Shown in pieces: positions 11,639 to 27,771 of a stretch of DNA of 40,000 nucleotides; the stretch's first letter is position 1; the number at the start of each line of letters is the position of its first letter. This stretch comes from Delftia acidovorans. GTDB lineage: Bacteria; Pseudomonadota; Gammaproteobacteria; Burkholderiales; Burkholderiaceae_C. The notes under the pieces were generated by a model, which did not search any database, was not told the DNA's origin, and was given only the letters and a program-made list of their open reading frames with translations. Position numbers and translations under genes: made by a program. The stretch lies in assembly GCF_037146395.1 (NCBI RefSeq), contig NZ_JBBCVP010000004.1, one strand, 5' to 3'.

Positions 11639-11671
11639 GGGCCACATGCCGCTGCGCATGTGGCCCTTGTT
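11639..11671 (+). terminator. hairpin terminator after the MFS gene
   Basis: 11-bp perfect stem GGGCCACATGC/GCATGTGGCCC with a 6-nt loop, followed by TTGTT (weak T tract). Confidence 0.55.
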
Positions 11672-11695
11672 GCGTGCGACCAATCTTTCTATAAT
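11667..11695 (+). promoter_or_regulatory. sigma70-type promoter candidate (TTGTTG-N17-TATAAT)
   Basis: Consensus -10 TATAAT at 11690-11695 and TTGTTG at 11667-11672 with a 17-nt spacer, 85 bp upstream of the cupin gene. Confidence 0.5.
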
Positions 11696-11733
11696 TGTTT
11701 TACCCCATGAACTATGATTCATGGATAAAACAA
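11695..11733. promoter_or_regulatory. 39-bp inverted repeat / candidate operator abutting the -10 box
   Basis: TTGTTTTAccCCATGAActatgaTTCATGGaTAAAACAA. The outer arms are TTGTTTTA/TAAAACAA and the inner arms CCATGAA/TTCATGG. Confidence 0.55.
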
Positions 11734-11779
11734 ATGGCGCCTTCCCCGCCATGATCCACCGACGTTGATGGAGAGACAC

Positions 11780-12310
11780 ATGTCCGAATCCGCTCAGAAC
11801 ACGCCCCGCACCTGGGACCAGCCCGAAGGCTCCAGCTTCGAACAATGGATGGAGTCGCGCGTGGCGCGGTTTTCCACGCGCAAGTACGACTTCGACGCGC
11901 TGAAGTTCCAGGCCGACTTCGACCCCAAGTACCGCCGTGGCCAGATGCGCTACATCGGCACGGGCGGCACGGGCGTGGCTGCGGACAGCAACACCATCCC
12001 TTCCGAGAACTTCACCTTCTCCACCATGGTCATCCCGGCCGGCAATGAAGGCCCCTCGCATCTGCACACCGATGTGGAGGAGGTCTTCTTCCTGATCCGC
12101 GGCAAGCTCAAGCTCGTGCTGGAGAAGGACGGCCAGCGCTTCGAGACCATCCTCACCGACCGCGACGTGGTCTCCGTGCCGCCCGGCGTGTACCGCGAGG
12201 AAATCAACATCGGCGACGAGGACGCGCTGATGTGCGTGATGCTGGGTGCCAAGAAGCCCATCACACCCACCTATCCCCCCGAGCATCCTCTGGCCAAGAT
12301 CAAGCGTTGA
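11780..12310 (+). CDS. cupin domain protein
   Basis: About 176 aa from ATG 11780 (GGAGAG upstream; the track start is TTG 11765). Cupin metal motif GPSHLHTDVEEVFFLIRG. Confidence 0.8.
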   Translation: MSESAQNTPRTWDQPEGSSFEQWMESRVARFSTRKYDFDALKFQADFDPKYRRGQMRYIGTGGTGVAADSNTIPSENFTFSTMVIPAGNEGPSHLHTDVEEVFFLIRGKLKLVLEKDGQRFETILTDRDVVSVPPGVYREEINIGDEDALMCVMLGAKKPITPTYPPEHPLAKIKR

Positions 12311-12324
12311 GCAACGGGCCTGCC

Positions 12325-13179
12325 ATGACCGCGCAGACGCTGCAGCGCATGGAGCAGCGCCTTCAGGCGCAGTTCCCCGAACACCTCGTCGCCCTGCCCG
12401 GTGGCGCCCAGGTCGCCTGGCGCGAGGCGGGCGACACGGCCTCGGACTTTGCCGTGGTGATGCTGCACGGCATCAGCTCGGGCGCCGCGTCCTGGATGGA
12501 GGTGGCCCTGGAGCTGGCGCCGCGCACGCGCGTGCTGGCCTGGGATGCGCCCGGCTACGGCCGCTCCACGCCGCTGGCACCCGCCGCGCCCACGGGCGCC
12601 GACTACGCCCGCGTGCTGGAGCAGTCGCTGCAGGCGCTGGGCGTGCGCCGCTGCCTGCTGGTGGGCCACTCGCTGGGTGCGCTCATGGGCACGCCCTGGG
12701 CGGTGCAGGCGGGCGCTGCCCGCGTGCAGCAACTGGTGCTGATCAGCCCCGCTGGCGGCTATGGCGCACCCGGAATGGGCGAACAGCAGGCCAAGGTACG
12801 CGCAGGCCGCTTGGAGGCGTTGCAGCAAAAAGGCATCGAAGGCCTGGCCGCCGCCATCGACCAGCGCCTGGTCTCGCCCGCCGCGCCCGAACCCGTGCGC
12901 CAATGGGTGCGCTGGAACACGGCGCGCCTGCATGCCGCAGGCTACGCCCAGGCCGTGGAGCTGCTGTGCGGCAGCGACCTGGGGCAAGCTGCGGGGCAAC
13001 TGGCCATGCCGGTCGAGGTCTGGGTGGGCGAGCACGACGTGGTCACGCCGCCTGCCGCCTGTGCGGCCTGGGCCCAAAGGCTGGGCGCCCGGTACGTTAC
13101 GCTTGCGGCAGCCGGCCATGCCTCTGTCGTCGAACAACCTGCGGATGTCGCACAGAGGCTGGCCACCCTGCTGACCTGA
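12325..13179 (+). CDS. alpha/beta-fold hydrolase
   Basis: 284 aa from ATG 12325. Oxyanion HG (MLHG) and nucleophile elbow GHSLG, with a late His (AGHAS). Confidence 0.85.
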   Translation: MTAQTLQRMEQRLQAQFPEHLVALPGGAQVAWREAGDTASDFAVVMLHGISSGAASWMEVALELAPRTRVLAWDAPGYGRSTPLAPAAPTGADYARVLEQSLQALGVRRCLLVGHSLGALMGTPWAVQAGAARVQQLVLISPAGGYGAPGMGEQQAKVRAGRLEALQQKGIEGLAAAIDQRLVSPAAPEPVRQWVRWNTARLHAAGYAQAVELLCGSDLGQAAGQLAMPVEVWVGEHDVVTPPAACAAWAQRLGARYVTLAAAGHASVVEQPADVAQRLATLLT

Positions 13180-13201
13180 TGGCCTACCGGCCCGAATTGC
13201 G

Positions 13202-14008
13202 ATGAGCGACACCTCCGAAACCCTCTCGAACGACAACGACCGCTACACCGTCCCCGCGCTGGAGCGCGGCCTGCGCCTGCTGGCCTGCTTCACGCCTTCG
13301 CAGCCCGTGTGGAGCGCGCCCGACCTGGCGCGCACCCTGGCGCTGCCGCGTTCCACGGTGTTCCGGATGCTGACGACGCTGGAGAACATGGGGTATCTGC
13401 AACGCTCGGGCACCGAGTACCGGCTGGGCCTGTCCGTGCTGCGCCTGGGCTACGACTACCTGTCCACCCAGCCGCTGGCCCAACTGGCCGAGCCCGTGCT
13501 GCAGGCGCTGTGCGAGCGCCTGGGCTTCACCACCAACCTGGCGCTGCTGGACGGCACCTCCGTGGTCTACGTGGCGCGCATTGCGCCGGCCGGCGCCTTC
13601 CAGGGCGCCGTGCGCGTGGGCTCCCGCCTGCCGGCCCATGCCACCGTGCTGGGCCGCGCCCTGCTGCAGGACATGGACGCAGACCAGCTGCGCGAACTCT
13701 TCGGCGGCAGCGAGCTGCAGCAATTCTCGGAAAGCACGCCGCGCGACGTGCAGCAACTGCAGCAGCTGCTGCTGCAGGACCGCGAGCGCGGCTACGCCAT
13801 GGGCGAGGGCTTCTACGAGCCCGGCGTCTCCAGCATTGCCGCACCCGTGCGCGATGCGCAGGGCCGCATCATCGCGGGCCTGGGCATGGCCGTGGCTTTT
13901 ACCGAAATCGCACCCGGGCGCATGGCGCACTGGGTGGAACAGGTGCGCGAGGCCGCCGTCGAACTGACGGGCCACCTGCGCACCCAGCACCCTGGTTTTC
14001 TGCGCTGA
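13202..14008 (+). CDS. IclR-family transcriptional regulator
   Basis: 268 aa. Motifs VPALERGLRLL, LPRSTVFRMLTTLE, GSRLPAHATVLGRALL. Paralog of the regulator at 17408-18295. Confidence 0.92.
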   Translation: MSDTSETLSNDNDRYTVPALERGLRLLACFTPSQPVWSAPDLARTLALPRSTVFRMLTTLENMGYLQRSGTEYRLGLSVLRLGYDYLSTQPLAQLAEPVLQALCERLGFTTNLALLDGTSVVYVARIAPAGAFQGAVRVGSRLPAHATVLGRALLQDMDADQLRELFGGSELQQFSESTPRDVQQLQQLLLQDRERGYAMGEGFYEPGVSSIAAPVRDAQGRIIAGLGMAVAFTEIAPGRMAHWVEQVREAAVELTGHLRTQHPGFLR

Positions 14009-14056
14009 GGAACTGGTGTCCCCACCATCCTTCAGGGCGTTCTTGCTCAGAAAGAA

Positions 14057-14860
14057 ATGACGATGAATATTGCTGTGATTGGCTGCGGTGCGATTGGCGC
14101 CAGCGTGCTCGAACTGCTCAAGGGCCATGCCGCGGTGCAGGTGGGCTGGGTGCTTGTGCCCGAAGTGACGGACGCCGTGCGCGCCACCCTGGCGCGGCAT
14201 GCGCCCCAGGCGCGCGCACTGCCTGCGCTGGCGGCCGAGGACCGGCCCGACCTCATCGTCGAATGCGCAGGCCATACCGCCATCGAAGAGCATGTGCTGC
14301 CCGCCCTGCAGCGCGGCATCCCTGCCGTCGTGGCCTCCATCGGCGCACTCAGCGCCCCCGGCATGGCCGAGGCCGTGCAGGCCGCGGCCGAGGCCGGAGG
14401 CACCCAGGTGCAATTGCTCTCGGGCGCCATCGGCGGTGTGGATGCGCTGGCCGCAGCCCGCATCGGCGGCCTGGACGAAGTGGTCTACACCGGCCGCAAG
14501 CCGCCCCTGGCCTGGACCGGCACGCCCGCAGAAAAGCGCTGCGACCTCGCCAGCCTCAAGCAAGCCTTCTGCATCTTCGAAGGCAGCGCACGCGAGGCCG
14601 CCCAGCTCTACCCCAAGAACGCCAACGTGGCCGCCACCCTGTCGCTGGCCGGCATGGGCCTGGACCGCACCACGGTGCGCCTGTACGCCGACCCGGCCGT
14701 GGACGAAAACGTGCACCACGTCGCGGCGCGCGGCGCCTTCGGCACCATGGAGCTGACCATGCGCGGCAAGCCGCTGGAGGCCAACCCCAAGACCTCGGCC
14801 CTCACCGTCTACAGCGTGGTGCGCGCCGTGCTCAACCAGGCCACGGCCATCGCCATCTGA
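14057..14860 (+). CDS. nadX: L-aspartate dehydrogenase family protein (NadX-like)
   Basis: 267 aa. IAVIGCGAIG Rossmann motif and the length and C-terminal pattern (NVHHV...ANPKTSALT) of the aspartate dehydrogenase family. The substrate is not established here. Confidence 0.8.
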   Translation: MTMNIAVIGCGAIGASVLELLKGHAAVQVGWVLVPEVTDAVRATLARHAPQARALPALAAEDRPDLIVECAGHTAIEEHVLPALQRGIPAVVASIGALSAPGMAEAVQAAAEAGGTQVQLLSGAIGGVDALAAARIGGLDEVVYTGRKPPLAWTGTPAEKRCDLASLKQAFCIFEGSAREAAQLYPKNANVAATLSLAGMGLDRTTVRLYADPAVDENVHHVAARGAFGTMELTMRGKPLEANPKTSALTVYSVVRAVLNQATAIAI

Positions 14861-14907
14861 GCCGGGCCGGGCGCAGGGTCACGGCACAATAGGCGCTTTC
14901 GCCCCGC

Positions 14908-14937
14908 AGGCGGCCCCCCGGGCCGCCTTTGCTTTTT
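14908..14937 (+). terminator. rho-independent terminator after nadX-like gene
   Basis: Perfect 9-bp stem AGGCGGCCC/GGGCCGCCT with a CCC loop, followed by TTGCTTTTT. Confidence 0.7.
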
Positions 14938-14964
14938 GCCTGTGCCGTTGAAAGAGAAGCCACC

Positions 14965-15720
14965 ATGACCATCGCCATCCTCAGTGCCCTGCCGCAGGAA
15001 CAGGAAGGCCTGGTCCATGCCATGTCCGACGCCCAGGGCACGGCCCACGCCGGCCGCATGTTCTGGCGCGGGCGCCTGCATGGGCACGACGTGGTCTGCG
15101 CGCTGTCTGGCATAGGCAAGGTGGCGGCCGCCACCACGGCCACTGCGCTGATCGAGCGCTTCGGCGTGCGCCGCATCGCCTTCACCGGCGTCGCCGGTGG
15201 CCTGGGCGAAGGCGTGCGCGTGGGCGACGTGGTCGTGGCCGACGAATACCTGCAGCACGACCTGGACGCCTCGCCCATCTTCCCGCGCTGGGAAATGCCC
15301 GGCTACGGCCGCACGCGCCTGCCCTGCGACCCCGAAATGACGGCCGCCCTGCTGGCCGCCGCCCAGGCCTGCGTGGCCGACGCGGGTGAAGACCTGCGCG
15401 CCGCCCACACCACCACGGCGCCGCGTGCGCACCAGGGGCTGATTGCCAGCGGTGACCAGTTCGTGGGCACGGCGGGGGCTTCGCTGGCCTTGGCGCAGGG
15501 TCTGCGGGCTGCGGGGCATGAGGTGCTGGCGGTGGAGATGGAAGGTGCCGCCGTGGCGCAGGCCTGCCTGGACTATGGCGTGCCGTTTGCGGCCATGCGC
15601 ACGATTTCGGATCGGGCGGATGACAGTGCGCATGTGGACTTTGCGGAGTTTGTGCGGGTGGTGGCGAGTCGGTATGCGTTGCGGGTTGTTGATGGGTTTT
15701 TGCGGCGGCTTGCTGTTTGA
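14965..15720 (+). CDS. mtnN: 5'-methylthioadenosine/S-adenosylhomocysteine nucleosidase
   Basis: 251 aa from ATG 14965. Motifs SGIGKVAAA, EMEGAAVAQ, ISDRAD. Confidence 0.88.
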   Translation: MTIAILSALPQEQEGLVHAMSDAQGTAHAGRMFWRGRLHGHDVVCALSGIGKVAAATTATALIERFGVRRIAFTGVAGGLGEGVRVGDVVVADEYLQHDLDASPIFPRWEMPGYGRTRLPCDPEMTAALLAAAQACVADAGEDLRAAHTTTAPRAHQGLIASGDQFVGTAGASLALAQGLRAAGHEVLAVEMEGAAVAQACLDYGVPFAAMRTISDRADDSAHVDFAEFVRVVASRYALRVVDGFLRRLAV

Positions 15721-15749
15721 TTTTTGACCCTGCCGGGTGGTTGTTTTTC

Positions 15750-16000
15750 GAGGCCGGGTTTCGGCCCGGCGGCCGACCTACTTTCTTGCCGCGCGGCAAG
15801 AAAGTAGGCAAAGAAGCGCGCCCCACTGCCCACGACCCCTTCGCTGCGCTCCGGGGCGACCTGCGTAGGGCGCGATGCGGGGTGCGCCGTGAAACTCGTT
15901 ACGCGCTGCGCGCTTCACTCAAACATCACGGCGAGCTAGATGACGAAGCAGCCCTGTCCTTCGGCAGGGCTGCTACCCCGCACCCCGCCCAACGCAGGCG
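15750..16000 (+). repeat. structured ~250-bp repeat element, copy L (REP/MITE-like, no coding capacity)
   Basis: Contains three hairpins: GCCGGG..CCCGGC; a 14-bp stem CCTACTTTCTTGCC/GGCAAGAAAGTAGG at 15777-15808; and GCAGCCCTG/CAGGGCTGC. It is the reverse complement of 16141-16392, with the first ~38 nt identical. Confidence 0.85.
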
Positions 16001-16026
16001 TGGGCAGAAGGGGGAAGGCTGAAGGA

Positions 16027-16066
16027 CAGCCAACAGCCAACAGCCAACAGCCAACAGCCAACAGCC
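16027..16066. repeat. heptanucleotide microsatellite (CAGCCAA)x5 plus a partial sixth unit
   Basis: Five perfect CAGCCAA units at 16027-16061, then CAGCC. Located between the two inverted repeat copies. Confidence 0.95.
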
Positions 16067-16140
16067 AACAGCCGGCGCCATCGCTCCGCTCAGCTTCAAG
16101 CCGGGGCCGAGCGAAGCGAAGGCCCGTACCCACTCCCCGT

Positions 16141-16392
16141 ATGAACGCGCCTGCGGCGTGGTGGTTGCGGGGTTGCAGTCCTGCCGAAGGACAGGACTGC
16201 TTCGTCGACTGACTCGCTGCGGTTGTCTGAGCGGCGCGCGAAGCGCAAAGCGAGTTCCGCAGCGAACCCCGCAACCGCCACGACGCAGGTTGCCCCGGAG
16301 CGAAGCGCAGGGGTCGCGGGCATTCGGGTGCTTTTCTTTGCCTACTTTCTTGTAGCAAGACAAGAAAGTAGGTCGGCCGCCGGGCCGAAACC
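16141..16392 (-). repeat. structured ~250-bp repeat element, copy R (inverted relative to copy L)
   Basis: The reverse complement aligns along its length with 15750-16000. The same three hairpins are present, with stem-preserving substitutions. Confidence 0.85.
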
Positions 16393-16554
16393 CGGCCTCT
16401 GCCCGCCGGCCGGGCATGCGTCCAAAAGCAGACCCAGGAAGCATCAAAAAAGACCCCGAAAAACACACACCCAGACACACCTCTGTCATCCATTTCCCAC
16501 ACCCCTCCGTGTTTTCCCCAATCCCCCCCCGCCCCATCAGTCCTAAACTCACGC

Positions 16555-16593
16555 TTGTTTCAAGAAAAAAGTGTCATTTCAAATTTGAAACAA
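16555..16593. promoter_or_regulatory. split palindrome / candidate operator upstream of the 12-gene operon
   Basis: TTGTTTCA-N23-TGAAACAA. It contains the perfect 14-bp palindrome TTTCAAATTTGAAA (16577-16590). It ends 32 bp before ATG 16625. Confidence 0.55.
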
Positions 16594-16624: not shown

Positions 16625-17395
16625 ATGAACACCACGCCCCCCACAGGCCAGCTTGCCGGCCGCCGCATCCTCGTCACAGGCTCGGCACGCGGCCTGGGCT
16701 TTGCGTTTGCCAAGGCCTTTTGCGAGCAGGGCGCGCGCGTCGCCATGGCCGATCTGCGGGAGGAGCTGCTGGCCGAATCCGTGGCCCGGCTGCGTGCGCA
16801 GGGCTTCGAGGCGCATGGCTTCGGGCTGGATGCCGGCAATCCGGAGTCGATAGAGCGCTGCGCGCAGCAGGCCGTGCAGGCGCTGGGCGGGCTGGACGGC
16901 CTGGTGAACAACGCGGCCGTGACCGATTCGGGCGGCAAGGGCATGGACGACATCGATCTGGACAAGTGGGACCAGGTGATGAACGTGAACGTGCGCGGCG
17001 TGTGGCTGATGACGCGTGCCTGCCGCGCCGCGCTGCGCGACAGCGGCCGGGGCGCCATCGTCAACCTGGCGTCCGACACCGCGATGTGGGGTGCCCCCAA
17101 CCTGATGGCCTATGTGGCCAGCAAGGGCGCGGTGATGGCCATGACGCGCTCCATGGCGCGCGAGCTGGGGGCCGACGGCATCACCATCAACGCCGTGGCG
17201 CCGGGCCTGGTGCTGGTGGAGGCCACGGAGTACGTGCCCGAGCACCGCCACCGCCTGTACATCGACCAGCGCGCGCTGCAGCGCGAGCAGCGGCCCGAGG
17301 ATGTGTCGGGCGCCGTGGCCTATGCGCTGTCCGATGGCGCGCGCTTCGTGACGGGGCAGGTACTGCCCGTCAACGGCGGCTTCGTCATGAATTGA
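16625..17395 (+). CDS. classical short-chain dehydrogenase/reductase (SDR)
   Basis: 256 aa from ATG 16625 (GAGGAA upstream). Motifs TGSARGLG, NNAAV, and Ser...YVASK with canonical spacing. Confidence 0.9.
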   Translation: MNTTPPTGQLAGRRILVTGSARGLGFAFAKAFCEQGARVAMADLREELLAESVARLRAQGFEAHGFGLDAGNPESIERCAQQAVQALGGLDGLVNNAAVTDSGGKGMDDIDLDKWDQVMNVNVRGVWLMTRACRAALRDSGRGAIVNLASDTAMWGAPNLMAYVASKGAVMAMTRSMARELGADGITINAVAPGLVLVEATEYVPEHRHRLYIDQRALQREQRPEDVSGAVAYALSDGARFVTGQVLPVNGGFVMN

Positions 17396-17407: not shown

Positions 17408-18295
17408 ATGACCGACACCACCTCTTCCGGGAATGCCGAGAGCGCCGAAAGCGCGGACAACGGCACCGACAAGTACATGGTGCCCGCGCTGGAGCGCGGC
17501 CTGCGCCTGCTGCAGGAGTTCGGGCGCGGCAATGCCACGCTGGGCGCGCCCGAGCTGGCCCGCCGCCTGCAGCTGCCGCGCGCCACGATTTTCCGCATGC
17601 TCAACACGCTGGAGGCCATGGGCTTTCTGCAGCGTGCCGAGGGCAGCAATGACTACCGGCTGGGCCTGTCCGTGCTGCGCCTGGGCTTCGAGTTCCTGTC
17701 GTCCATGGACCTGACCGAGCTGGGCCAGCCCGTGATCGCGCGGCTGTGCGGCGAGATCCGCTACCCCTGCAACATCGTGGTGCGTGATGGCCGCTCCATC
17801 GTCTACGTGGCCAAGGTCACGCCGCCCACGCCGCTGACCAGTTCGGTGCGTGTGGGCACGCGCCTGCCCGCCCATGCCACGGCCCTGGGCCGCGTGCTGC
17901 TGGCCGACCTGTCCCTGCCCGAGCTGCGCACGCTCTACCCCGAGGATCACCTGGAAGCGCACACGCCCAAGACGCCGCGCACGGTGCTGGACCTGTTCAA
18001 CCTGGTCGAGGCCGACCGCGAGCGCGGCCATGTGTTCAGCGAAGGTTTCTACGAAAGCTCCATCTGCACCATTGCCGCGCCCGTGCGCGACCACAGCGGC
18101 CGCGTGGTGGCGGCGCTGGGCACGACGGTCCCCGCGCCCCATGTGGAAGAGGGCCGTGCCGAGACCCTGATCGCCGGCGTCCGCGGCGCGGCGGCCGAAC
18201 TGTCCGAGCTGCTGAACTACCGCCCGCAAACGCAAACGCAGACGGCGCAGCTGCTTTCCCTCAATTCCCGGCGCGCAGGAGGCGGCCATGTTTGA
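17408..18295 (+). CDS. IclR-family transcriptional regulator
   Basis: 295 aa. Motifs VPALERGLRLL, LPRATIFRMLNTLE, GTRLPAHATALGRVLL. The stop overlaps the next gene's start by 8 bp. Confidence 0.92.
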   Translation: MTDTTSSGNAESAESADNGTDKYMVPALERGLRLLQEFGRGNATLGAPELARRLQLPRATIFRMLNTLEAMGFLQRAEGSNDYRLGLSVLRLGFEFLSSMDLTELGQPVIARLCGEIRYPCNIVVRDGRSIVYVAKVTPPTPLTSSVRVGTRLPAHATALGRVLLADLSLPELRTLYPEDHLEAHTPKTPRTVLDLFNLVEADRERGHVFSEGFYESSICTIAAPVRDHSGRVVAALGTTVPAPHVEEGRAETLIAGVRGAAAELSELLNYRPQTQTQTAQLLSLNSRRAGGGHV

Positions 18296-19085
18296 TTCCC
18301 AACTCAAGGACACCACGGCCGTCGTCACCGGCGGCTCTTCGGGCATTGGCCTGGCCACGGTCGATCTGCTGCTGTCGCAGGGCGCGCGTGTCGCCCTGTG
18401 CGGGCGCAATGCCGAACGCCTGGAGCAGGCCGTGCAGCACCTGCGCGAACGCCATCCCGAGGCCCGCCTGTTTTCACAGGCCTGCGACGTGCTCGACGCC
18501 GCCCAGGTGCAGCAATTCGCGCGTGACAGCGAGGCGGCGCTGGGTGCGGCCTCCATCCTCGTGAACAACGCGGGCCAGGGCCGGGTCTCGACCTTCGCCA
18601 GCACCGACGACGCGGCCTGGACCGAGGAGCTGCACCTGAAGTTCTTCTCGGTGCTGCATCCCACGCGCGCCTTCCTGCCGCAGCTGGAACGCACGGCGCA
18701 GCCGGCCATCGTCTGCGTGAATTCGCTGCTGGCCTCGCAGCCCGAGCCGCACATGGTGGCCACATCGGCCGCACGTGCCGGCCTCAAGAACCTGGTGCGC
18801 TCCATGGCTACCGAGTTCGCGCCCAAGGGTGTGCGCGTCAACGGCATCCTCGTCGGCCTGATCGAGTCCGGCCAGTGGCGCCGCCGCTTCGAGGCGCGCG
18901 AGGACCGCAGCCAGGACTGGAATGCCTGGAGCGGCGAACTGGCCCGCAAGAAAGCCATTCCGCTGGGCCGCCTGGGCTCGCCTGACGAGGCCGCCCGCGC
19001 CATCTTCTATCTCGCCACACCCCTGTCTTCGTACACGACCGGCAGCCACATCGATGTGTCAGGCGGTCTTTCGCGACAAGCCTAG
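18288..19085 (+). CDS. SDR-family protein with non-canonical active-site positions
   Basis: 265 aa. TGGSSGIG and NNAG are present, but the positions expected for Tyr-x3-Lys read T-S-A-A-R (Ser146, Thr159, Arg163 by spacing). GGAGG upstream. Confidence 0.85.
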   Translation: MFDSQLKDTTAVVTGGSSGIGLATVDLLLSQGARVALCGRNAERLEQAVQHLRERHPEARLFSQACDVLDAAQVQQFARDSEAALGAASILVNNAGQGRVSTFASTDDAAWTEELHLKFFSVLHPTRAFLPQLERTAQPAIVCVNSLLASQPEPHMVATSAARAGLKNLVRSMATEFAPKGVRVNGILVGLIESGQWRRRFEAREDRSQDWNAWSGELARKKAIPLGRLGSPDEAARAIFYLATPLSSYTTGSHIDVSGGLSRQA

Positions 19086-19119
19086 TGCCTCAGCCCAGCA
19101 ACCCGATTCCAAGCAGAAC

Positions 19120-20826
19120 ATGACATCCACCGCAAACAAAATCACCGTCGGCGCCGTTGTGGCCCAGTTCCTCGAACACTGCGGAGTCAAGGCCGCGTTC
19201 GGCGTGATCTCCATCCACAACATGCCCATCCTGGACGCGATGCATGCGCGCGGCCATGTCCGCTTCGTGATGGCACGCGGCGAGGCCGGCGCCGGCAACA
19301 TGGCCGATGCCTGCGCGCGTTCCACCTCCAGCCTGGGCGTGTGCATCACCAGCACCGGCCCGGCCGCCGGCAACATCGCCGGCAGCCTGGTGGAGGCCTA
19401 TACGGCCGGCACGCCGCTGCTGCACATCACGGGCCAGATCGAGACGCAGTACCTGGACCAGAAGCTGTCGTACATCCACGAGGCGCCCGACCAGCTGACC
19501 ATGCTGGGCGCCGTGTCCAAGGCGGCGTTCCGCGTGCGCAGCGCCGAGACCTGCCTGTCCACCCTCAAGGCCGCCGTGCAGGCCGCCATGACCGCGCCCA
19601 CGGGCCCGGTGAGCGTGGAGATTCCCATCGACATCCAGCAGACCGTGATCGACATGCCGGCCGACCTGTCGCCGCTGCCGGTGGCCGTGCTGGCGCCCAG
19701 CGAGGCATCGCTGGATGCGCTGGCCGACACGCTGGCCAAGGCACGCCGCCCGCTGCTGTGGCTGGGTGGCGGCGCACGCCACGCAGTCGCGGCCGTGCAG
19801 CGCCTGAAGGCGCTGGGCTTCGGCATCGTCAGCACGGGCCAGGGCCGCGGCATCGTGGCCGAGGACGATCCGGCCTCGCTGGGCGCCTACAACATCCAGA
19901 AGCCCGTGGAGGCCTTCTACCAGCGCTGCGACGCCATGCTGGCCGTGGGCACGCGCCTGCGCAGCAATGAGACGCTGAAGTACGAACTCAAGCTGCCGCG
20001 CCCGCTGCTGCGCATCGATGTCGATGCCGCCCAGCAGGGCCGCTGCTATGCCGACGACGGCTTTGTCTGCGGCGACTCGGCCCTGGCGCTGACGGGCCTG
20101 GCCGACCGGCTGGAGGCGCGCGGCTACCAAGCCGACCCCGAGCTGCTGGCCGACCTGCGCCAGGTGCATGACGAGGCGGTGGCCACCATGCGCGACGGCC
20201 TGGGCCCGTACAGCGTGCTGGTGCAGCAGCTGCAAAAGGCGGTGGGCCGCAACTTCAACTGGGTGCGCGACGTGACCGTCTCCAACAGCACCTGGGGCAA
20301 CCGCGAGCTGCGCTTTTTCGAGCCCAATGCGGGCGTGCACGCCACGGGCGGCGGCATCGGCATGGGCATGCCCATGGCCATCGGCGCTGCCGTGGGCGCG
20401 GCGGTGACCGGCTCGGGCCGCAAGACGCTGGGCCTGGCGGGCGATGGCGGCTTCATCCTGAACCTGGGCGAACTGGCCACGCTGGTGCAGGAGGAGTGCG
20501 ACACCCTGATCGTGCTCATGAACGACCAGCGCTACGGCGTGATCCAGAACATCCAGGACGCCTCCTACGGCGGCCGCCGCTGCTATGTGGAGCTGCACAC
20601 GCCCGACTACGCGCAGCTGTGCGCCTCCATCCAGCTGCCCCATGCCCGCGTGCAGAACCTCGACGAGCTGCCGGCCGTGCTGGCCTCTGCCTGGGCCAAG
20701 AAGGGCCCCTTCCTGCTGGAGATCGACATGCGCGCCATCGGCAGCTTCAAGGCCACGTTCTCGGGCCCTCCCGTGAACAAGCTGGACCAGATCCCGGCCA
20801 CCACCACGGCGTCCAAGGCCGCCTGA
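19120..20826 (+). CDS. thiamine-diphosphate-dependent enzyme (acetolactate synthase / decarboxylase / dione-hydrolase superfamily)
   Basis: 568 aa from ATG 19120. N-terminal PYR domain with the catalytic Glu context (ARGEAGAGNMADA). ThDP-binding GDGGF...x...ND motif. Confidence 0.88.
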   Translation: MTSTANKITVGAVVAQFLEHCGVKAAFGVISIHNMPILDAMHARGHVRFVMARGEAGAGNMADACARSTSSLGVCITSTGPAAGNIAGSLVEAYTAGTPLLHITGQIETQYLDQKLSYIHEAPDQLTMLGAVSKAAFRVRSAETCLSTLKAAVQAAMTAPTGPVSVEIPIDIQQTVIDMPADLSPLPVAVLAPSEASLDALADTLAKARRPLLWLGGGARHAVAAVQRLKALGFGIVSTGQGRGIVAEDDPASLGAYNIQKPVEAFYQRCDAMLAVGTRLRSNETLKYELKLPRPLLRIDVDAAQQGRCYADDGFVCGDSALALTGLADRLEARGYQADPELLADLRQVHDEAVATMRDGLGPYSVLVQQLQKAVGRNFNWVRDVTVSNSTWGNRELRFFEPNAGVHATGGGIGMGMPMAIGAAVGAAVTGSGRKTLGLAGDGGFILNLGELATLVQEECDTLIVLMNDQRYGVIQNIQDASYGGRRCYVELHTPDYAQLCASIQLPHARVQNLDELPAVLASAWAKKGPFLLEIDMRAIGSFKATFSGPPVNKLDQIPATTTASKAA

Positions 20827-20861
20827 GGCGGCTGGATTCGAACGAACGAGAGAGGCTCACC

Positions 20862-22337
20862 ATGTCGAACCTGGAACTGCTCCCCATCAATATCGCCGGC
20901 GAATGGCGCCTGGGCGGCGGTGGCGAATCCACCACGCTGTATCCCGCCACCGGCGAAGTGGTGGGCCGCCTGCGCGCGCCCAGCCTGGAGGATGTGGAGG
21001 AGGCCATCCAGAAGGCCGACCACGCCTTCCGCACCAGCGGCTGGGCCCAGAAAAAGCCCCATGAGCGCGCGGCCGTGCTGCACCGCGTGGCCCAGCTGAT
21101 CCGCGAGCGCGCCGAGCCGCTGGCCCAGCTGCAGCGCCTGGACAACGGCAAGCCCATCAAGGAAACACGCATGCTGGTGGCCAGCGCTGCCGCCACCTTC
21201 CAGTTCTTTGCCGCCGCCTGCGAGACCATGGAGGAAACCATCACGCCCTCGCGCGGCGACTTCATGACCATGAGCGTGTACGAGCCCATGGGCGTGGTGG
21301 CGGCCATCACGCCGTGGAACTCGCCCATCGCCAGCGAGGCGCAAAAGCTGGCGCCCGCGCTGGCCGCCGGCAATGCCGTGGTCGTCAAGCCCGCCGAAGC
21401 CACGCCGCTGCTGGCGCTGGAGCTGGCCAGGATCTGCGAGGAGGCCGGCGTGCCCAAGGGCCTGGTCAGCGTGCTGCCGGGCCGCGGCTCGGTGATCGGC
21501 GATGCCATCACCAAGCACCCGCTGGTCAAGCGCGTGTCGTTCACGGGCGGCACGTCCACGGGCAAGCACATCGCCCACATCGCGGCCGACAAGATGATGC
21601 CGGTCTCGCTGGAGCTGGGCGGCAAGTCGGCCACCATGGTGCTGGCCGATGCCGACATCGACCACGCCGTCAACGGCGTGCTCTACGGCATCTTCAGTTC
21701 CTCGGGCGAGTCGTGCATCGCGGGCTCGCGCCTGTTCGTGGCGCGCGCCTTGCACGCCGAGTTCATGCAGCGCCTGACGGCCAAGGCCGCCGCGCTGCAG
21801 GTGGGCGACCCGGCCGACGAGCGCACGCAGATGGGGCCGCTGATCACCGCCAGGCACCGCGAATCCATCGAGAGCTATGTGGCCCTGGGCCTGTCCGAAG
21901 GCGGCCGGCTGCTCACGGGCGGACAGCGGCCCGAGGGCGCGCAGTTCGAGCGCGGCTACTACTACCGCCCCACCATCATCGACGGCGTGAAGAACGACTG
22001 GCAGATCTGCCAGCAGGAAATCTTCGGCCCCGTGCTCGTGGCCATGCCCTTCGACAACGAGGACGACCTGCTCGCCCAGGCCAACGACAGCGTCTATGCG
22101 CTGGCCGCCGGCATCTGGACGCGCGACTACAAGAGCGCCTGGCGCATTGGCCGCGCCGTGCAGGCCGGCACGGTCTGGATCAACACCTACAAGCAGTTCT
22201 CCATCTCCACGCCCTTCGGCGGCTGGCGCGACAGCGGCCTGGGCCGCGAGAAGGGGCGGCTGGGCATACAGCAGTACATGGAGCAAAAGAGCATGTACTG
22301 GGGCTTGAACGAGAGCCCCATCGCTTGGGCAAATTGA
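20862..22337 (+). CDS. NAD(P)-dependent aldehyde dehydrogenase
   Basis: 491 aa from ATG 20862. Motifs LELGGKSA (Glu), GESCIAGSR (Cys), EEIFGPV-type QEIFGPV. Confidence 0.92.
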   Translation: MSNLELLPINIAGEWRLGGGGESTTLYPATGEVVGRLRAPSLEDVEEAIQKADHAFRTSGWAQKKPHERAAVLHRVAQLIRERAEPLAQLQRLDNGKPIKETRMLVASAAATFQFFAAACETMEETITPSRGDFMTMSVYEPMGVVAAITPWNSPIASEAQKLAPALAAGNAVVVKPAEATPLLALELARICEEAGVPKGLVSVLPGRGSVIGDAITKHPLVKRVSFTGGTSTGKHIAHIAADKMMPVSLELGGKSATMVLADADIDHAVNGVLYGIFSSSGESCIAGSRLFVARALHAEFMQRLTAKAAALQVGDPADERTQMGPLITARHRESIESYVALGLSEGGRLLTGGQRPEGAQFERGYYYRPTIIDGVKNDWQICQQEIFGPVLVAMPFDNEDDLLAQANDSVYALAAGIWTRDYKSAWRIGRAVQAGTVWINTYKQFSISTPFGGWRDSGLGREKGRLGIQQYMEQKSMYWGLNESPIAWAN

Positions 22338-22348
22338 AGGAGCACGAC

Positions 22349-23311
22349 ATGAGCGTACTGGGCATAGACGAAATCACCTATGGCGCGGACGACCTGGCGA
22401 CCTGCCGCCGCTTCTTCCTGGACTGGGGCCTGAAGCTGGTGCAGGAACAGGCCGACCGGCTGGTGTTCGAGACCCTCAACGGCTGCCGCGTGATCGTGGC
22501 CGCCGTGGACCATCCCGATCTGCCGCCCGCCATCGAGGCCGGCCCCACGCTGCGCGAGGTGGTCTGGGGCGTGGAGAGCGAGGCGGACCTTGCGCTGTAC
22601 GCCAGCCGCATTGCCGCGCTGCCGGGCTTCACGCAGGGCCAGGGGCGCATAGGCTGCACCGATCCCAACGGCCTGTCCGTGCGCCTGCAGGTCACGCAAA
22701 AGCGCGATGTCGATGTGCAAAGCGCCGCCTACAACACCTGGAGCCGCAAGGATCGCATCGACCAGGCCAGCCCCGCCTACGAGCGCGCCCAGCCCATCGA
22801 GGTCGGCCATGTGGTGTTCTTCGTCAAGGATGTGCAGGCCTGCGAGCGTTTCTACGTGGACAACTTCGGCTTCGCAGCCTCGGACCGCTACCCCGAGCGC
22901 GGCGCCTTCCTGCGCTGCGCGCCCGACGGCGGCCACCACGACATCTTCCTGCTGCAGCGCCCGGCCAGGGACGCGGGCCTGAACCACGTGGCCTTCACGG
23001 TGCGCGACATCCACGAGGTCTTCGGCGGCGGCATGCACATCTCGCGCTGCGGCTGGGACACCCAGTTGGGCCCGGGCCGCCATCCCGTGTCCTCGGCCTA
23101 TTTCTGGTACTTCCGCAATCCGGCCGGCGCCCTGGTCGAGTACTACGCCGACGAGGACCAGCTGACCGCCGACTGGCAGCCGCGCGAGTTCGAGCCCGGC
23201 CCCACGGTGTTTGCCGAATGGGCCATCGATGGCGGCATCGACGGCAACACCCGGCGCCAGAAGGGCGTTGGCACATCGGACGGCAAGTTCATCACCGACA
23301 AGCGGCATTGA
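22349..23311 (+). CDS. two-domain VOC-family protein (type I extradiol dioxygenase-like)
   Basis: 320 aa from ATG 22349 (GAAGGAG upstream). The C-terminal domain has candidate His/His/Glu metal ligands (VGHVVFF, LNHVAF, LVEYY). Confidence 0.8.
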   Translation: MSVLGIDEITYGADDLATCRRFFLDWGLKLVQEQADRLVFETLNGCRVIVAAVDHPDLPPAIEAGPTLREVVWGVESEADLALYASRIAALPGFTQGQGRIGCTDPNGLSVRLQVTQKRDVDVQSAAYNTWSRKDRIDQASPAYERAQPIEVGHVVFFVKDVQACERFYVDNFGFAASDRYPERGAFLRCAPDGGHHDIFLLQRPARDAGLNHVAFTVRDIHEVFGGGMHISRCGWDTQLGPGRHPVSSAYFWYFRNPAGALVEYYADEDQLTADWQPREFEPGPTVFAEWAIDGGIDGNTRRQKGVGTSDGKFITDKRH

Positions 23312-23362
23312 GACCGCGCCTGACGGCCTCCCCCCACAACCCAACCACCCCACGGCCTCCCC

Positions 23363-24340
23363 ATGAACAAGACACGTCGCCAGGTTTCTCTCGCCGCTGC
23401 ATTCCTGGCTGCAGCCACGCTGTCCGGCACCGCGATGGCCCAGGCCTATCCGGCCAAGCCCATCACCATCATCGTGGCCTATCCGGCCGGCGGCGACACC
23501 GATGCCATGGCGCGCCTGTATGCCGAGAAGCTGTCCACGCGCCTGGGCCAGCCCGTGCTGGTGGACAACCGCCCCGGTGCCAGCGGCACCATCGGCAGCG
23601 TGCATGTGGCCAAGGCCGCGCCGGACGGCTACACCCTGCTGCTGGCGCCCAATACCTTTGCCATCGCGCAATTCGTGCTCAAGACGGCCTCGGGCTCCAG
23701 CTACGACGTGCTGCACGGCTTCACGCCCATCGTGCAGACCAGCGTGCAGCCCATGTTCGTGGCCACCAACCAGGCCTCGGGCATCAAGGACATGAAGACC
23801 CTGATCGCCCAGGGCAAGCGCGACGGCCTGACCTACGCCAGCCCCGGCAGCGGCTCGCCCATGCACATCCTGGGCGAGATGTTCAACCGCGCCGCCGGCA
23901 CGCGTATCGCCCACATTCCCTACAAGGGCGTGGCGCCTGCCGTCAACGACCTGATCGGCGGCCATGTGCCCACGACCTTCATGACCTGGGGGCCGATCGC
24001 GCCCTACATCGGCGGCAAGGTCACCGCCCTGGCCGTGGCCGACGGCCAGCGCAGCGCGCTGGCCCCCAATGTGCCCACCCTGGCCGAACTGGGCGTCAAG
24101 GACGTGGAAGTGTCCGCATGGCAGGGCCTGTTCGGCCCCAAGGGCATGTCGCCCGAGACCGTGAAGCTGCTGAACACGCATCTCAACGAGATCCTGAAGA
24201 TGCCCGACGTGGTCTCCAAGATGGCCACCTTCGGCGCGCTGCCCGCGGGCGGCGAGCCCGCGCGCCTGGAAAAGACCAATGCCGCCGATTTCAATCGCTT
24301 CGGCAAGCTCATCAAAGATCTGGATATCAGGGCTGATTGA
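23363..24340 (+). CDS. Bug-family (TctC-like) periplasmic substrate-binding protein
   Basis: 325 aa. Signal peptide ends ...GTAMAQA. Motifs VDNRPGASG, PDGYTLLL, YASPGSGSPMH. Confidence 0.9.
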   Translation: MNKTRRQVSLAAAFLAAATLSGTAMAQAYPAKPITIIVAYPAGGDTDAMARLYAEKLSTRLGQPVLVDNRPGASGTIGSVHVAKAAPDGYTLLLAPNTFAIAQFVLKTASGSSYDVLHGFTPIVQTSVQPMFVATNQASGIKDMKTLIAQGKRDGLTYASPGSGSPMHILGEMFNRAAGTRIAHIPYKGVAPAVNDLIGGHVPTTFMTWGPIAPYIGGKVTALAVADGQRSALAPNVPTLAELGVKDVEVSAWQGLFGPKGMSPETVKLLNTHLNEILKMPDVVSKMATFGALPAGGEPARLEKTNAADFNRFGKLIKDLDIRAD

Positions 24341-24378
24341 GCCCCCCCCACACAAGACAGTTTTCGAAGGAGAGAACC

Positions 24379-24600
24379 ATGGCCGCTGATCGCTATCTCG
24401 AGCCGCACCAGGCGCGCGAACGCGCCCCCACCCTGATGGAAGACCTGCTGGGCGATTCCATCGAACGCGCCTTCGGCGAAGGCGTGCAGACCCTGCCCGA
24501 ACTGGTGGCCTATCTCAACCGCAGCGGCCCCGCCGGCGAGAACGGCCAGGCCTGGACCGAAGACAGCTTCCAGGCGCTGATGGCGCGGCTGGGCTATTGA
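24379..24600 (+). CDS. 73-aa protein of unknown function (possibly a recombinase-like HTH-type small protein)
   Basis: ATG 24379 is preceded by GAAGGAGAG. G/C-rich third positions. It sits 24 bp upstream of the Rieske oxygenase gene. The family assignment comes from memory of similar small proteins next to Rieske oxygenases and is unverified. Confidence 0.6.
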   Translation: MAADRYLEPHQARERAPTLMEDLLGDSIERAFGEGVQTLPELVAYLNRSGPAGENGQAWTEDSFQALMARLGY

Positions 24601-24624
24601 TACCGCGCAGGACAGGAGAGCCCC

Positions 24625-27742: not shown

Positions 27743-27771
27743 TACAGCCCATCGGGCGATAGAGACTTGCC

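What the first reader, a model, noticed from the sequence alone, without database searches (positions are those of the whole stretch)
11695..16593. Two IclR-containing operons 5 kb apart carry the same split palindrome TTGTTTYA-N23-TRAAACAA
TTGTTTTA-N23-TAAAACAA (11695-11733) lies upstream of the cupin-hydrolase-IclR-NadX operon. It starts at the last base of a consensus TATAAT box. TTGTTTCA-N23-TGAAACAA (16555-16593) lies upstream of the SDR-IclR-...-MFS operon, 32 bp before its first ATG. The half-sites differ at one position and the spacer length is identical (23 nt in both, counted directly). The two operons each encode an IclR paralog with very similar DNA-binding regions (VPALERGLRLL..., LPR(S/A)T(V/I)FRML(T/N)TLE). 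This suggests cross-regulation or a common effector, and functionally ties the NadX-like operon to the large catabolic operon even though mtnN and a repeat block lie between them.
Basis: seen in the sequence. Interest (0 to 1): 0.65.

Follow-up and report, generated by a model that had tools for sequence, protein, structure and literature searches.

The report
Shared IclR operator of a split catabolic regulon
The two look-alike split palindromes are real, conserved binding sites of a common type for IclR-family regulators; they tie two neighbouring operons and two distant ones into a single regulon for a widespread breakdown pathway whose substrate is still unknown.

Summary
Observation confirmed. 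TTGTTTYA-N23-TRAAACAA occurs exactly twice in the 6.55-Mb, 67% GC genome, at 11695-11733 and 16555-16593.

It is not the recognition unit, though. Eighty related loci show that the unit is an 18-bp dyad, TGTTTYA-N4-TRAAACA. There were 101 hits against 0 for two control patterns. A second, weaker dyad sits exactly 19 bp away in 82 of 98 contexts.

In most genomes (Pseudomonas, Cupriavidus, Ralstonia, Herbaspirillum, Polaromonas) the genes of both operons form one cluster with one IclR. That cluster matches P. aeruginosa PA3504-PA3514. The window's Comamonas-type lineage has it split, with two IclR paralogs (48% identical, near-identical recognition helices).

A matrix built only from other genomes ranks two further sites top in this genome. 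One precedes a relocated cluster TctC gene. The other precedes a TctC-molybdenum hydroxylase operon, and that site is conserved in three Comamonas species.

Both window sites abut conserved -10-like boxes, so effector-released repression is the likeliest mode (inferred).

This is a new member of a known kind. Earlier scan notes described the cluster in other genomes, but none described this operator.

The parts
11640..11665 (+). Perfect 10-bp-stem hairpin (GGCCACATGC-CGCTGC-GCATGTGGC C) between the upstream MFS gene and the site 1 promoter. Probably the terminator or insulator of the preceding unit.
   Evidence: Sequence. The fold has z = -4.6. The nearest relative L019 keeps the stem through a change on both sides (A>G with T>C), seen in alignment A1.
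11667..11672 (+). -35-like hexamer TTGTTG of the operon 1 promoter, 17 nt upstream of TATAAT.
   Evidence: cTTGTkG is conserved in 8 of 9 orthologous promoters in alignment A1. The strict consensus scan did not flag it because it matches only 3 of 6.
11690..11695 (+). -10 box TATAAT of the operon 1 promoter. Its last base is the first base of site 1.
   Evidence: Sequence. It is TATAAT in 8 of 9 orthologous promoters and TACAAT in the ninth.
11695..11733 (.). Site 1: double-dyad IclR operator. The promoter-proximal weak dyad is at 11696-11713 (TGTTTTACCCCATGAACT). The strong core dyad is at 11715-11732 (TGATTCATGGATAAAACA).
   Evidence: The core dyad scores 22.8 bits, third best in the genome, and the distal dyad -2.9 bits, with only its outer arm intact. 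It is conserved in 9 orthologous promoters.
11780..12310 (+). Cupin gene, first gene of operon 1.
   Evidence: Pfam Cupin_2. It is 79-93% identical in the 80 listed of 582 related loci.
12325..13179 (+). Alpha/beta hydrolase gene. The start is inferred as the first ATG after the cupin stop; the open frame runs from 12232.
   Evidence: Pfam Abhydrolase_1; start candidates.
13202..14008 (+). IclR1, an IclR-family regulator, 22 nt after the hydrolase gene and so probably co-transcribed and autoregulated.
   Evidence: Pfam HTH_IclR plus IclR_C. It forms a separate long-branch clade found only in genomes with the split layout.
14057..14860 (+). Aspartate-dehydrogenase-family gene, last gene of operon 1.
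   Evidence: Pfam Asp_DH_C. NCBIfam NF009827 scores 474 bits against a cut-off of 226.
14908..14928 (+). Intrinsic-terminator-like hairpin (9 pairs, 8 G-C, followed by a T-rich tail) that closes operon 1 before the MtnN-like gene.
16544..16549 (+). -10-like hexamer TAAACT, 5 nt upstream of site 2.
   Evidence: CTAAACT/CTACACT is invariant at T, A, A, C, T in 12 orthologous promoters in alignment A2. No -35 could be assigned.
16555..16593 (.). Site 2: double-dyad IclR operator. The weak dyad is at 16556-16573 (TGTTTCAAGAAAAAAGTG). The core dyad is at 16575-16592 (CATTTCAAATTTGAAACA).
   Evidence: The core scores 19.9 bits and the distal dyad 2.5 bits. It is conserved in 12 orthologous promoters.
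16625..17395 (+). SDR1, first gene of operon 2 (GAGGA ribosome-binding site at 16615-16619).
   Evidence: Pfam adh_short; sequence. In most genomes its ortholog lies directly upstream of the cupin gene.
17408..18295 (+). IclR2, the ortholog of the single IclR of the unsplit clusters. It lies 12 nt after SDR1, so it is probably co-transcribed and autoregulated.
   Evidence: Pfam; tree.
18288..29067 (+). Rest of operon 2: SDR2 18288-19085, ThDP enzyme 19120-20826, aldehyde dehydrogenase 20862-22337, two-domain glyoxalase/extradiol-type dioxygenase 22349-23311, TctC 23363-24340, HTH_62 24379-24600, Rieske oxygenase 24625-25650, reductase 25647-26606, porin 26675-27742, MFS 27772-29067.
   Evidence: Pfam; start codons. 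No further operator scores above 4 bits anywhere in the window.

Best explanation
Each site is an operator for the IclR-family regulator(s) encoded in the operons it precedes.

Anatomy (shown). The recognition unit is an 18-bp dyad, TGTTTYA-N4-TRAAACA. An operator holds two such dyads offset by 19 bp. In the window's sites, the promoter-distal dyad is strong and the promoter-proximal dyad keeps mainly its outer arm. This is why the sites look like TTGTTTYA-N23-TRAAACAA.

Binding (inferred from family knowledge). One IclR tetramer, a dimer of dimers, would cover the roughly 37 bp.

Mode (inferred from position). Both sites start 0-5 nt after conserved -10-like hexamers, so they cover about +1 to +40. 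Binding should therefore block transcription until a pathway metabolite releases the protein. Because both IclR genes sit inside the controlled operons, the loop would be negatively autoregulated.

Evolution (shown). The two operons are halves of one conserved catabolic cluster that is split in this lineage. Each half keeps a regulator paralog with almost the same recognition helix.

Regulon in this genome (shown by position, not by binding). There are at least four units: the cupin operon, the SDR1 operon, a relocated TctC gene and a TctC-molybdenum hydroxylase operon.
For: Specificity. The exact pattern occurs only twice in the genome. The core dyad at one mismatch or fewer gives 101 hits in 59 of 80 cluster loci (1.52 Mb), against 0 for two composition-matched control patterns. 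At two mismatches or fewer, 77 of 80 loci have a hit. Every hit listed with its flanking genes lay between mapped genes.

Architecture. The best second dyad lies at exactly +/-19 bp in 82 of 98 distinct contexts. The 37-bp consensus is GTTtCAtATatnaAnC-nn-TGTTTYATATATRAAACA, and the outer arm of the weak dyad is better conserved than its inner arm.

The motif follows the operon head whatever gene that is: SDR1 or cupin in Comamonadaceae and Pigmentiphaga, HTH_62/Rieske, hydrolase and divergent TctC in Cupriavidus and Ralstonia, and an ABC importer in Pseudomonas and Massilia.

Independent regulon test. A matrix built only from other genomes ranks C13:79276 and C3:620242 as the top two sites in this genome. 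In the double-dyad score, 4 sites exceed 15 bits against 0 for both controls.
- The C3 site sits 64 nt before a TctC gene that is 68-73% identical to the TctC inside the cluster of C. testosteroni, C. guangdongensis, C. phosphati and C. terrae.
- The C13 site precedes a TctC-Mo hydroxylase operon. The site is conserved before the 74-76% orthologs in three Comamonas species and absent before a 42% paralog.

Regulator. An IclR gene is the only regulator present in every cluster. The Pigmentiphaga cupin module has the operator and an IclR, and no HTH_62 homolog was detected in that 20-kb locus. Recognition helices are PRSTVFRMLTTLE, PRATIFRMLNTLE and PRSTVFRLLTTLE across clades.

Position. cTTGTkG-N17-TATAAT abuts site 1 and CTAAACT abuts site 2, and both are conserved.

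DNA element, not RNA element. There is no covariation between positions 6 and 13; the non-pairing C..A combination is the commonest, 24 of 61.
Against: - No binding, footprint or expression data exist. The strict consensus scan called no promoter, and no -35 is evident for site 2.
- The promoter-proximal dyads of the window's own sites score poorly (-2.9 and 2.5 bits). Occupancy by a second dimer there is an inference from the conserved 19-bp register.
- Close relatives in the PcaR/PcaU/PobR group act as activators, so activation is not excluded.
- PA3508, the P. aeruginosa ortholog, was cloned for HT-SELEX, but I found no motif for it in the supplements held as text.
- Which of IclR1 and IclR2 binds which site cannot be told from sequence.
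Confidence: 0.8

Rival explanations
1. The sites are IclR operators, but the regulators act as effector-dependent activators, as PcaU, PobR and PcaR do, rather than as repressors.
For: Both IclRs score best against the PcaR/PcaU/PobR subfamily model TIGR02431, though below its cut-off; members of that subfamily are activators (family knowledge). No -35 element is evident for site 2, which is typical of activator-dependent promoters. In the unsplit Comamonas and Acidovorax loci the site ends only about 20 nt before the SDR1 coding match, so the promoter must overlap the site or lie upstream of it.
Against: Site 1 lies directly downstream of a conserved TTGTkG-N17-TATAAT that looks self-sufficient. 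Both sites sit downstream of the conserved -10-like hexamers rather than upstream of a -35. Most catabolic IclR regulators with operators at +1 are repressors (family knowledge).
Confidence: 0.2
2. The two IclRs are insulated from each other. IclR1 binds only site 1-type operators and IclR2 only site 2-type operators, each sensing a different metabolite (lower-pathway intermediate versus initial substrate), so there is no cross-regulation despite the shared arms.
For: Each site type keeps its own inner sequence across Comamonas species: ATGAAC and a TAAAACA right arm at the cupin sites, against AGAAAAAAGTG and a TGAAACA right arm at the SDR1 sites. IclR1 is an old, long-branch paralog rather than a recent copy. 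Pigmentiphaga carries a similar pair of modules, each with its own IclR and operator.
Against: The recognition helices differ at only three positions (S/A, V/I, T/N). Genomes with a single IclR use TAAAACA and TGAAACA arms interchangeably, even within one dyad.
Confidence: 0.35
3. The palindromes are bound by a different protein, such as the small HTH_62 protein of the cluster, the neighbouring LysR or a global regulator, and not by the IclRs.
For: An HTH_62 gene accompanies the Rieske oxygenase gene in most clusters. No binding data assign the site to any protein.
Against: In the stand-alone cupin-hydrolase-IclR-AspDH-TctC locus of Pigmentiphaga, which carries the operator, no HTH_62 homolog was detected; a LysR-like gene lies in that locus but not in most clusters. 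LysR boxes (T-N11-A) and CRP/FNR boxes do not resemble the motif (family knowledge). The motif's genome-wide occurrence is limited to this regulon, which argues against a global factor.
Confidence: 0.07
4. The elements act at the RNA level, as 5'-UTR hairpins that control attenuation, stability or translation.
For: Both sites probably lie in the 5' UTR. The site 1 region folds better than shuffled sequence (z = -3.6).
Against: The arm sequences are conserved as sequence, with no compensatory variation; the non-pairing C..A combination is commonest, 24 of 61. The site 2 region does not fold better than shuffles (z = -0.7). Sites occur in both orientations, in divergent intergenic regions and up to three per promoter region.
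Confidence: 0.03
5. Chance resemblance between two AT-rich promoter regions, or terminal repeats of a small mobile element.
For: Both regions are AT-rich islands (42-47% GC) in a 67% GC genome.
Against: There were no matches in shuffles and none for the control patterns. The sites are conserved at orthologous positions across families of Burkholderiales and in Pseudomonas, and the 19-bp register is fixed.
Confidence: 0.01

Closest known systems
PcaU / PobR / PcaR operators (IclR family, beta-ketoadipate pathway of Acinetobacter and Pseudomonas)
   Same: This is the closest curated subfamily by sequence: TIGR02431 is the best NCBIfam hit for both IclRs, and a PcaR structure (8eju) is among the best PDB sequence hits. 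From memory of the literature, the PcaU operator has three repeats, a palindrome plus a third repeat in direct orientation about one helical turn away. That resembles the three well-kept half-sites of the window's operators.
   Different: The scores (191 and 172 bits) are below the family cut-off of 284.75, so the IclRs are not members. The half-site sequence differs: GTTTYA here, against a GTTCGAT/ATCGCAC type recalled from memory. PcaU and PobR activate from upstream of the promoter, whereas these sites lie downstream of -10-like boxes.
TtgV-type tetramer operator (IclR family, Pseudomonas putida efflux pump repressor)
   Same: From memory of the published structure: an IclR-family tetramer covers an operator of about 40 bp made of four half-sites that overlaps the promoter, and it represses until an effector binds. 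The size (37-39 bp), the four-half-site layout and the promoter overlap match what is seen here.
   Different: No sequence relationship beyond family level was tested. TtgV controls an efflux pump, not a catabolic cluster. Tetramer binding here is inferred, not shown.
KdgR box of enterobacteria (IclR family)
   Same: The half-site letters are almost the same (TGAAACA / TGTTTCA, from memory). KdgR is the third-best NCBIfam hit, and KdgR structures appear among the PDB hits.
   Different: The arm order is inverted. KdgR boxes read TGAAACA-n-TGTTTCA, whereas here the conserved unit reads TGTTTYA-N4-TRAAACA. A KdgR-like arrangement arises only at the junction of the two dyads, which is the least conserved part of the operator. 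The scores are far below the KdgR cut-off.
PA3504-PA3514 cluster of Pseudomonas aeruginosa with the IclR-type regulator PA3508
   Same: The gene order is the same as in the Pseudomonas loci analysed here: ABC importer, SDR, cupin, hydrolase, IclR, SDR, ThDP enzyme, AspDH, ALDH. A preprint treats PA3504-PA3514 as one operon, with PA3507 an SDR-type reductase, PA3508 a regulator and PA3512 an ABC transporter protein (10.1101/2025.04.03.646983).
   Different: I could not fetch the P. aeruginosa sequence itself. The gene-by-gene correspondence is partly from memory. I found no published operator or effector for PA3508.

Membership tests
IclR family of transcription regulators | N-terminal winged HTH_IclR domain (PF09339) plus C-terminal IclR effector domain (PF01614) | tested here: met
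   IclR1: 58.2 and 129.4 bits. IclR2: 53.2 and 118.4 bits. All are above the cut-offs.
IclR family of transcription regulators | Palindromic operator in or next to the promoter of the adjacent or own operon | tested here: met
   An 18-bp dyad is conserved at the head of the cluster's operons in 77 of 80 loci, against 0 control hits. Binding itself was not tested.
IclR family of transcription regulators | Binding as a dimer or tetramer, released or modulated by a small-molecule effector | not testable with these tools
   The fixed 19-bp register of two dyads is compatible with a tetramer. The effector is unknown.
PcaR/PcaU/PobR subfamily (TIGR02431) | Score above the curated subfamily cut-off (284.75 bits) | tested here: not met
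   191.5 bits (IclR1) and 171.8 bits (IclR2). They are related but not members.
KdgR regulon operator | Box with arms in the order TGAAACA-n-TGTTTCA, and a regulator matching the KdgR equivalog NF011671 (cut-off 275 bits) | tested here: not met
   The arms are in the opposite order with an N4 spacer. The scores are 109.6 and 118.4 bits.
Promoter-occluding repressor operator | Operator overlaps the -10/+1 region of a mapped promoter | tested here: inconclusive
   Conserved TATAAT (site 1) and TAAACT (site 2) lie 0-5 nt upstream of the operators. No transcription start site is mapped, and the strict scan calls no promoter.
Structured 5'-UTR RNA element | Compensatory base changes that preserve pairing | tested here: not met
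   Positions 6 and 13 vary independently (C..A 24, T..G 13, C..G 13, T..A 10; Fisher p = 0.12, with the trend opposite to pairing).

The most novel reading that the evidence does not exclude
The shared operator code defines the regulon of the long-missing bacterial pathway for kynurenate/quinaldate-type N-heteroaromatic acids. The Mo hydroxylase operon would be the entry step and the SDR1 operon the upper pathway. The cupin-hydrolase-AspDH module would be a portable lower pathway. In split genomes, two paralogous IclRs that read the same DNA code but sense different metabolites would then form a two-input circuit on common operators, possibly through mixed tetramers or competition. The same design appears to recur in Pigmentiphaga.
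Probability: 0.2. Interest if true: 0.7.

Novelty: new member of a known kind. Interest (0 to 1): 0.45.

Why it matters
The cluster is present in at least 582 species-representative genomes. These include Pseudomonas, Cupriavidus, Ralstonia, Herbaspirillum and Comamonas, and the cluster corresponds to P. aeruginosa PA3504-PA3514. I found no assigned substrate or regulator specificity for it.

A defined operator gives three things:
- A sequence-based way to delimit the regulon in any genome. Here it added a TctC binding-protein gene and a molybdenum hydroxylase operon, which points to an N-heteroaromatic carboxylic acid as substrate.
- A direct route to finding the substrate, by screening candidate effectors with promoter-reporter or EMSA-release assays.
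- A natural case of two paralogous IclR regulators sharing one DNA code in a split pathway, useful for studying insulation versus cross-talk.

As a class of element it is ordinary: an IclR operator.

Tried and rejected
- Reading N23 as a true spacer of one long palindrome. Rejected: the conserved unit is the N4 dyad, repeated at a 19-bp offset.
- A KdgR-like central box (TRAAAC-n3-GTTTYA at the junction of the two dyads) as the main unit. Rejected: it is the least conserved part of the operator.
- An RNA hairpin. Rejected for lack of covariation and because site 2 has no folding signal.
- Other matrix hits in the genome (C1:605491, C5:337691, C6:70625, C1:820888, C2:74524, C4:190009). These are single dyads of 17-20 bits with no link to the cluster, at a rate similar to the controls, so I did not claim them.
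- A family-wide scan for the exact N23 pattern. Most one-mismatch hits were noise in low-GC genomes, at a rate similar to the backward control. Only G022 and G179 were orthologous sites.
- IclR1 as a recent duplicate of IclR2. Rejected: IclR1 is a long-branch sister to the whole IclR2 clade. The root is uncertain because the outgroup branch is very long.
- Literature. The searched library holds no paper with these operator sequences in a relevant context, no motif for PA3508, and no paper on kynurenate catabolic genes.
- Transcription start evidence from public RNA runs.
- The consensus promoter scan found nothing at either site. The promoter elements I cite come from phylogenetic footprints instead.

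Full report
**Observation**

- Site 1: TTGTTTTACCCCATGAACTATGATTCATGGATAAAACAA, 11695-11733.
- Site 2: TTGTTTCAAGAAAAAAGTGTCATTTCAAATTTGAAACAA, 16555-16593.

None of 100 shuffles of the window gave a match. I loaded the whole assembly (53 contigs, 6,554,024 bp, 66.6% GC; the window is C4:146299-186298). The pattern occurs only at these two places, even with the spacer relaxed to 10-35 nt, and the 8-mer half-site occurs only 94 times on both strands. TATAAT ends on the first base of site 1. Site 2 ends 31 nt before the ATG of the SDR gene at 16625.

**Gene map**

- Upstream of site 1: TetR, a hydroxyacid dehydrogenase and an MFS gene, then a perfect hairpin at 11640-11665.
- Operon 1: cupin 11780-12310, alpha/beta hydrolase 12325-13179, IclR1 13202-14008, aspartate-dehydrogenase-family gene 14057-14860. 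It is closed by a strong terminator-like hairpin at 14908-14928.
- An MtnN-like gene (14965-15720) and about 830 bp of non-coding DNA follow.
- Operon 2: SDR1 16625-17395, IclR2 17408-18295, SDR2, ThDP enzyme, aldehyde dehydrogenase, extradiol-type dioxygenase, TctC, HTH_62, Rieske oxygenase, reductase, porin and MFS, ending at 29067.

The two IclRs are 48% identical. Each is the other's closest paralog among about 25 IclR genes in the genome; the next best is 35%.

**Related loci: the two operons are halves of one cluster**

A scan of species-representative genomes with the cupin protein found 582 relatives, and I analysed the best 80 loci. Mapping the window's proteins onto them gave two layouts.

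- One cluster, one IclR. This is the prevailing layout in Pseudomonas, Cupriavidus, Ralstonia, Herbaspirillum, Massilia and Polaromonas, in an Acidovorax MAG and in some Comamonas. The order is SDR1-cupin-hydrolase-IclR-SDR2-ThDP-AspDH-ALDH-dioxygenase-...-HTH_62-Rieske-reductase.
- Split layout, two IclRs. This is seen in the window's lineage: C. testosteroni, C. guangdongensis, C. phosphati, C. terrae and four MAG loci.

A preprint describes P. aeruginosa PA3504-PA3514 as one operon with matching annotations. That fits my recollection that this is the same cluster.

**What the motif really is**

Scanning the 80 loci for the N23 pattern recovered orthologous sites in Comamonadaceae and Pigmentiphaga. 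It also exposed a stronger shared element: an 18-bp dyad, TGTTTYA-N4-TRAAACA, with consensus TGTTTYATATATRAAACA.

- At one mismatch or fewer there are 101 hits in 59 of 80 loci (1.52 Mb), against none for two control patterns of the same composition. At two mismatches or fewer, 77 of 80 loci have a hit, and two of the other three are short contigs.
- Every hit listed with its flanking genes lay between mapped genes, at the head of whatever gene leads the local operon. That gene is SDR1 or cupin in some lineages, HTH_62/Rieske, hydrolase and a divergent TctC in Cupriavidus and Ralstonia, and an ABC importer (ATPase, NMT1-type binding protein, permease) in Pseudomonas and Massilia.
- With a matrix built from these dyads, the best second dyad lies at exactly +/-19 bp in 82 of 98 distinct contexts.
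- The 37-bp consensus is GTTtCAtATatnaAnC-nn-TGTTTYATATATRAAACA. In the weak dyad, the outer arm is better kept than the inner arm.

The arithmetic is exact. From the outer arm of dyad 1 (positions 1-7) to the outer arm of dyad 2 (starting at position 31) leaves 23 nt. In the window, the strong dyads are 11715-11732 (22.8 bits) and 16575-16592 (19.9 bits). The promoter-proximal dyads score only -2.9 and 2.5 bits.

**DNA site, not RNA**

Positions 6 and 13 of the dyad would pair in a hairpin, yet they vary independently, and the non-pairing C..A combination is the commonest (24 of 61). The site 2 region folds no better than shuffled sequence. Sites also occur in both orientations and up to three per promoter region.

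**Regulon test in the window's own genome**

The matrix contains no sequence from this genome. Its two top-scoring positions are outside the window: C13:79276 (31.3 bits) and C3:620261 (25.8 bits; 37.5 bits as a double dyad starting at C3:620242). The two window sites rank third and sixth. On the double-dyad score, four sites exceed 15 bits against none for two control matrices.

- C3 site. It lies 64 nt before a TctC gene (signal peptide MKAPTLLG...). This TctC is 68-73% identical to the one that sits inside the cluster, after AspDH, in four Comamonas species. The gene has moved in this genome and kept its operator.
- C13 site. It lies about 90 bp before a minus-strand operon: TctC, the molybdopterin large subunit of a xanthine-dehydrogenase-family hydroxylase, its FAD subunit and a small open frame. 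Orthologs of the large subunit (74-76% identity) in C. testosteroni, C. guangdongensis and C. phosphati carry a double dyad at the same place. A 42% paralog does not.

The weaker single-dyad hits elsewhere have no link to the cluster and occur at control frequency.

**Which protein binds**

An IclR gene is the only regulator common to all clusters. The Pigmentiphaga locus cupin-hydrolase-IclR-AspDH-TctC has the operator, and no HTH_62 homolog was detected in it.

The recognition helix is nearly invariant across clades:
- IclR1: PRSTVFRMLTTLE
- IclR2: PRATIFRMLNTLE
- most single-IclR genomes: PRSTVFRLLTTLE

Both paralogs should therefore read the same half-site. In the tree, the IclR1 clade (nine sequences, all from split genomes) is a long-branch sister to all 76 IclR2-type sequences. 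It is not a recent duplicate, although the root is uncertain.

Pigmentiphaga also has a split arrangement. A second IclR heads SDR2-ThDP-ALDH-dioxygenase-HTH_62-Rieske-reductase elsewhere in the genome, with a double-dyad-like site 88 bp upstream.

**Mode of action (inferred)**

Alignment of nine cupin promoters shows conserved cTTGTkG-N17-TATAAT directly abutting the operator. Alignment of twelve SDR1 promoters shows an invariant CTAAACT/CTACACT 5-6 nt before the operator. The operators would then cover about +1 to +40, the classic position of a repressor that blocks RNA polymerase. Both iclR genes are 12-22 nt behind the preceding gene, so they are probably co-transcribed and negatively autoregulated.

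This is inference. Activation, as in the related PcaU/PobR group, keeps about a one-in-five chance.

**Comparison with known systems**

Both proteins meet the IclR family definition. They fall below the cut-offs of the PcaR/PcaU/PobR subfamily and of KdgR, AllR and IclR proper. From my own knowledge:
- The operator resembles the TtgV type in size and layout: about 40 bp, four half-sites, overlapping the promoter.
- It resembles the PcaU type in having a palindrome plus a further repeat.
- It shares half-site letters with the KdgR box, but with the arms in inverted order.

I found no publication giving this operator, a motif for PA3508 or the substrate of the cluster.

Earlier notes of this scan proposed kynurenate breakdown for the cluster. 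I did not test that. The new regulon members, TctC carboxylate-binding proteins and a molybdenum hydroxylase, fit an N-heteroaromatic carboxylic acid. Quinaldate 4-oxidoreductase, which makes kynurenate, is a molybdenum enzyme of this family (my own knowledge). This remains a lead only.

**Verdict**

The element is a double-dyad IclR operator that defines a regulon of at least four units. It is a new member of a known kind. It is useful mainly as a handle for finding the substrate of a very widespread cluster and for studying two paralogous regulators that share one DNA code.

Noticed in passing
G000:C13:79276-79293 (locus L096:5001-5018); operon at L096:236-4910, minus strand: This is the best operator match in the whole genome (TGTTCCATATATAAAACA, 31.3 bits). 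It lies about 90 bp upstream of an operon for TctC, a xanthine-dehydrogenase-family molybdenum hydroxylase large subunit, its FAD subunit and a small ORF. The operator is conserved before the orthologs in three Comamonas species.
   Followed up: yes
G000:C3:620242-620278 (locus L097:5001-5037); TctC gene from L097:5102: A double dyad lies 64 nt before a lone TctC gene. In other Comamonas species its ortholog sits inside the cluster, after AspDH. The gene has moved in this genome and kept its operator.
   Followed up: yes
window 16509-16519, and L097:4954-4963 (G000:C3:620195-620204): A conserved G-T-C element (GTGTTTTCCCC / GGGTTTYCCC) lies 36-48 bp upstream of the operator at site 2, at its orthologs in 12 genomes and at the relocated TctC promoter. 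It is too far from the -10-like box to be a normal -35. It may be a second regulator site or an unusual promoter element.
   Followed up: no
window 11640-11665: A perfect 10-bp-stem hairpin lies just before the -35 of the operon 1 promoter. The nearest relative (L019) keeps it through a change on both sides. It is probably the terminator of the upstream MFS unit, although no T-run follows.
   Followed up: partly
window 15761-15776 (+) and 16373-16388 (-): Identical G+C-rich hairpins with the same tail (TCGGCCCGGCGGCCGA CCTACTTTCT) occur on opposite strands. They belong to an inverted pair of roughly 250-bp repeats between the MtnN-like gene and site 2, which another reader also noted.
   Followed up: no
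L069 (JBNQGB010000001.1, labelled Gordonia sp. IEGM753): This 2.86-Mb contig, labelled as an actinomycete, carries a Pseudomonas-type cluster. Its IclR nests inside the P. fluorescens group in the tree. The record is probably mislabelled or contaminated.
   Followed up: no
L038/L039/L048 and L109/L110 (Pigmentiphaga): This is a second, apparently independent split of the cluster into cupin-hydrolase-IclR-AspDH-TctC and IclR-SDR2-ThDP-ALDH-dioxygenase-HTH_62-Rieske-reductase. Each part has its own IclR and an operator-like double dyad. The cupin module looks like a portable unit.
   Followed up: partly
window 11695-11733 and orthologs in alignment A1: Site 1 is nearly palindromic over its whole 39 bp. 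In other Comamonas species even the two N4 spacers are complementary (CCAA...TTGG). Site 2 lacks this feature. It may mark a preference of IclR1 for spacer sequence.
   Followed up: no
L023, L060, L073, L081 (unsplit Comamonas and Acidovorax loci), about 20 nt before SDR1: The right half of the operator (TTAGGTGAAACAA) supplies an AGGTGA Shine-Dalgarno-like sequence 7 nt before an ATG, so in these genomes the operator and the ribosome-binding site overlap.
   Followed up: no
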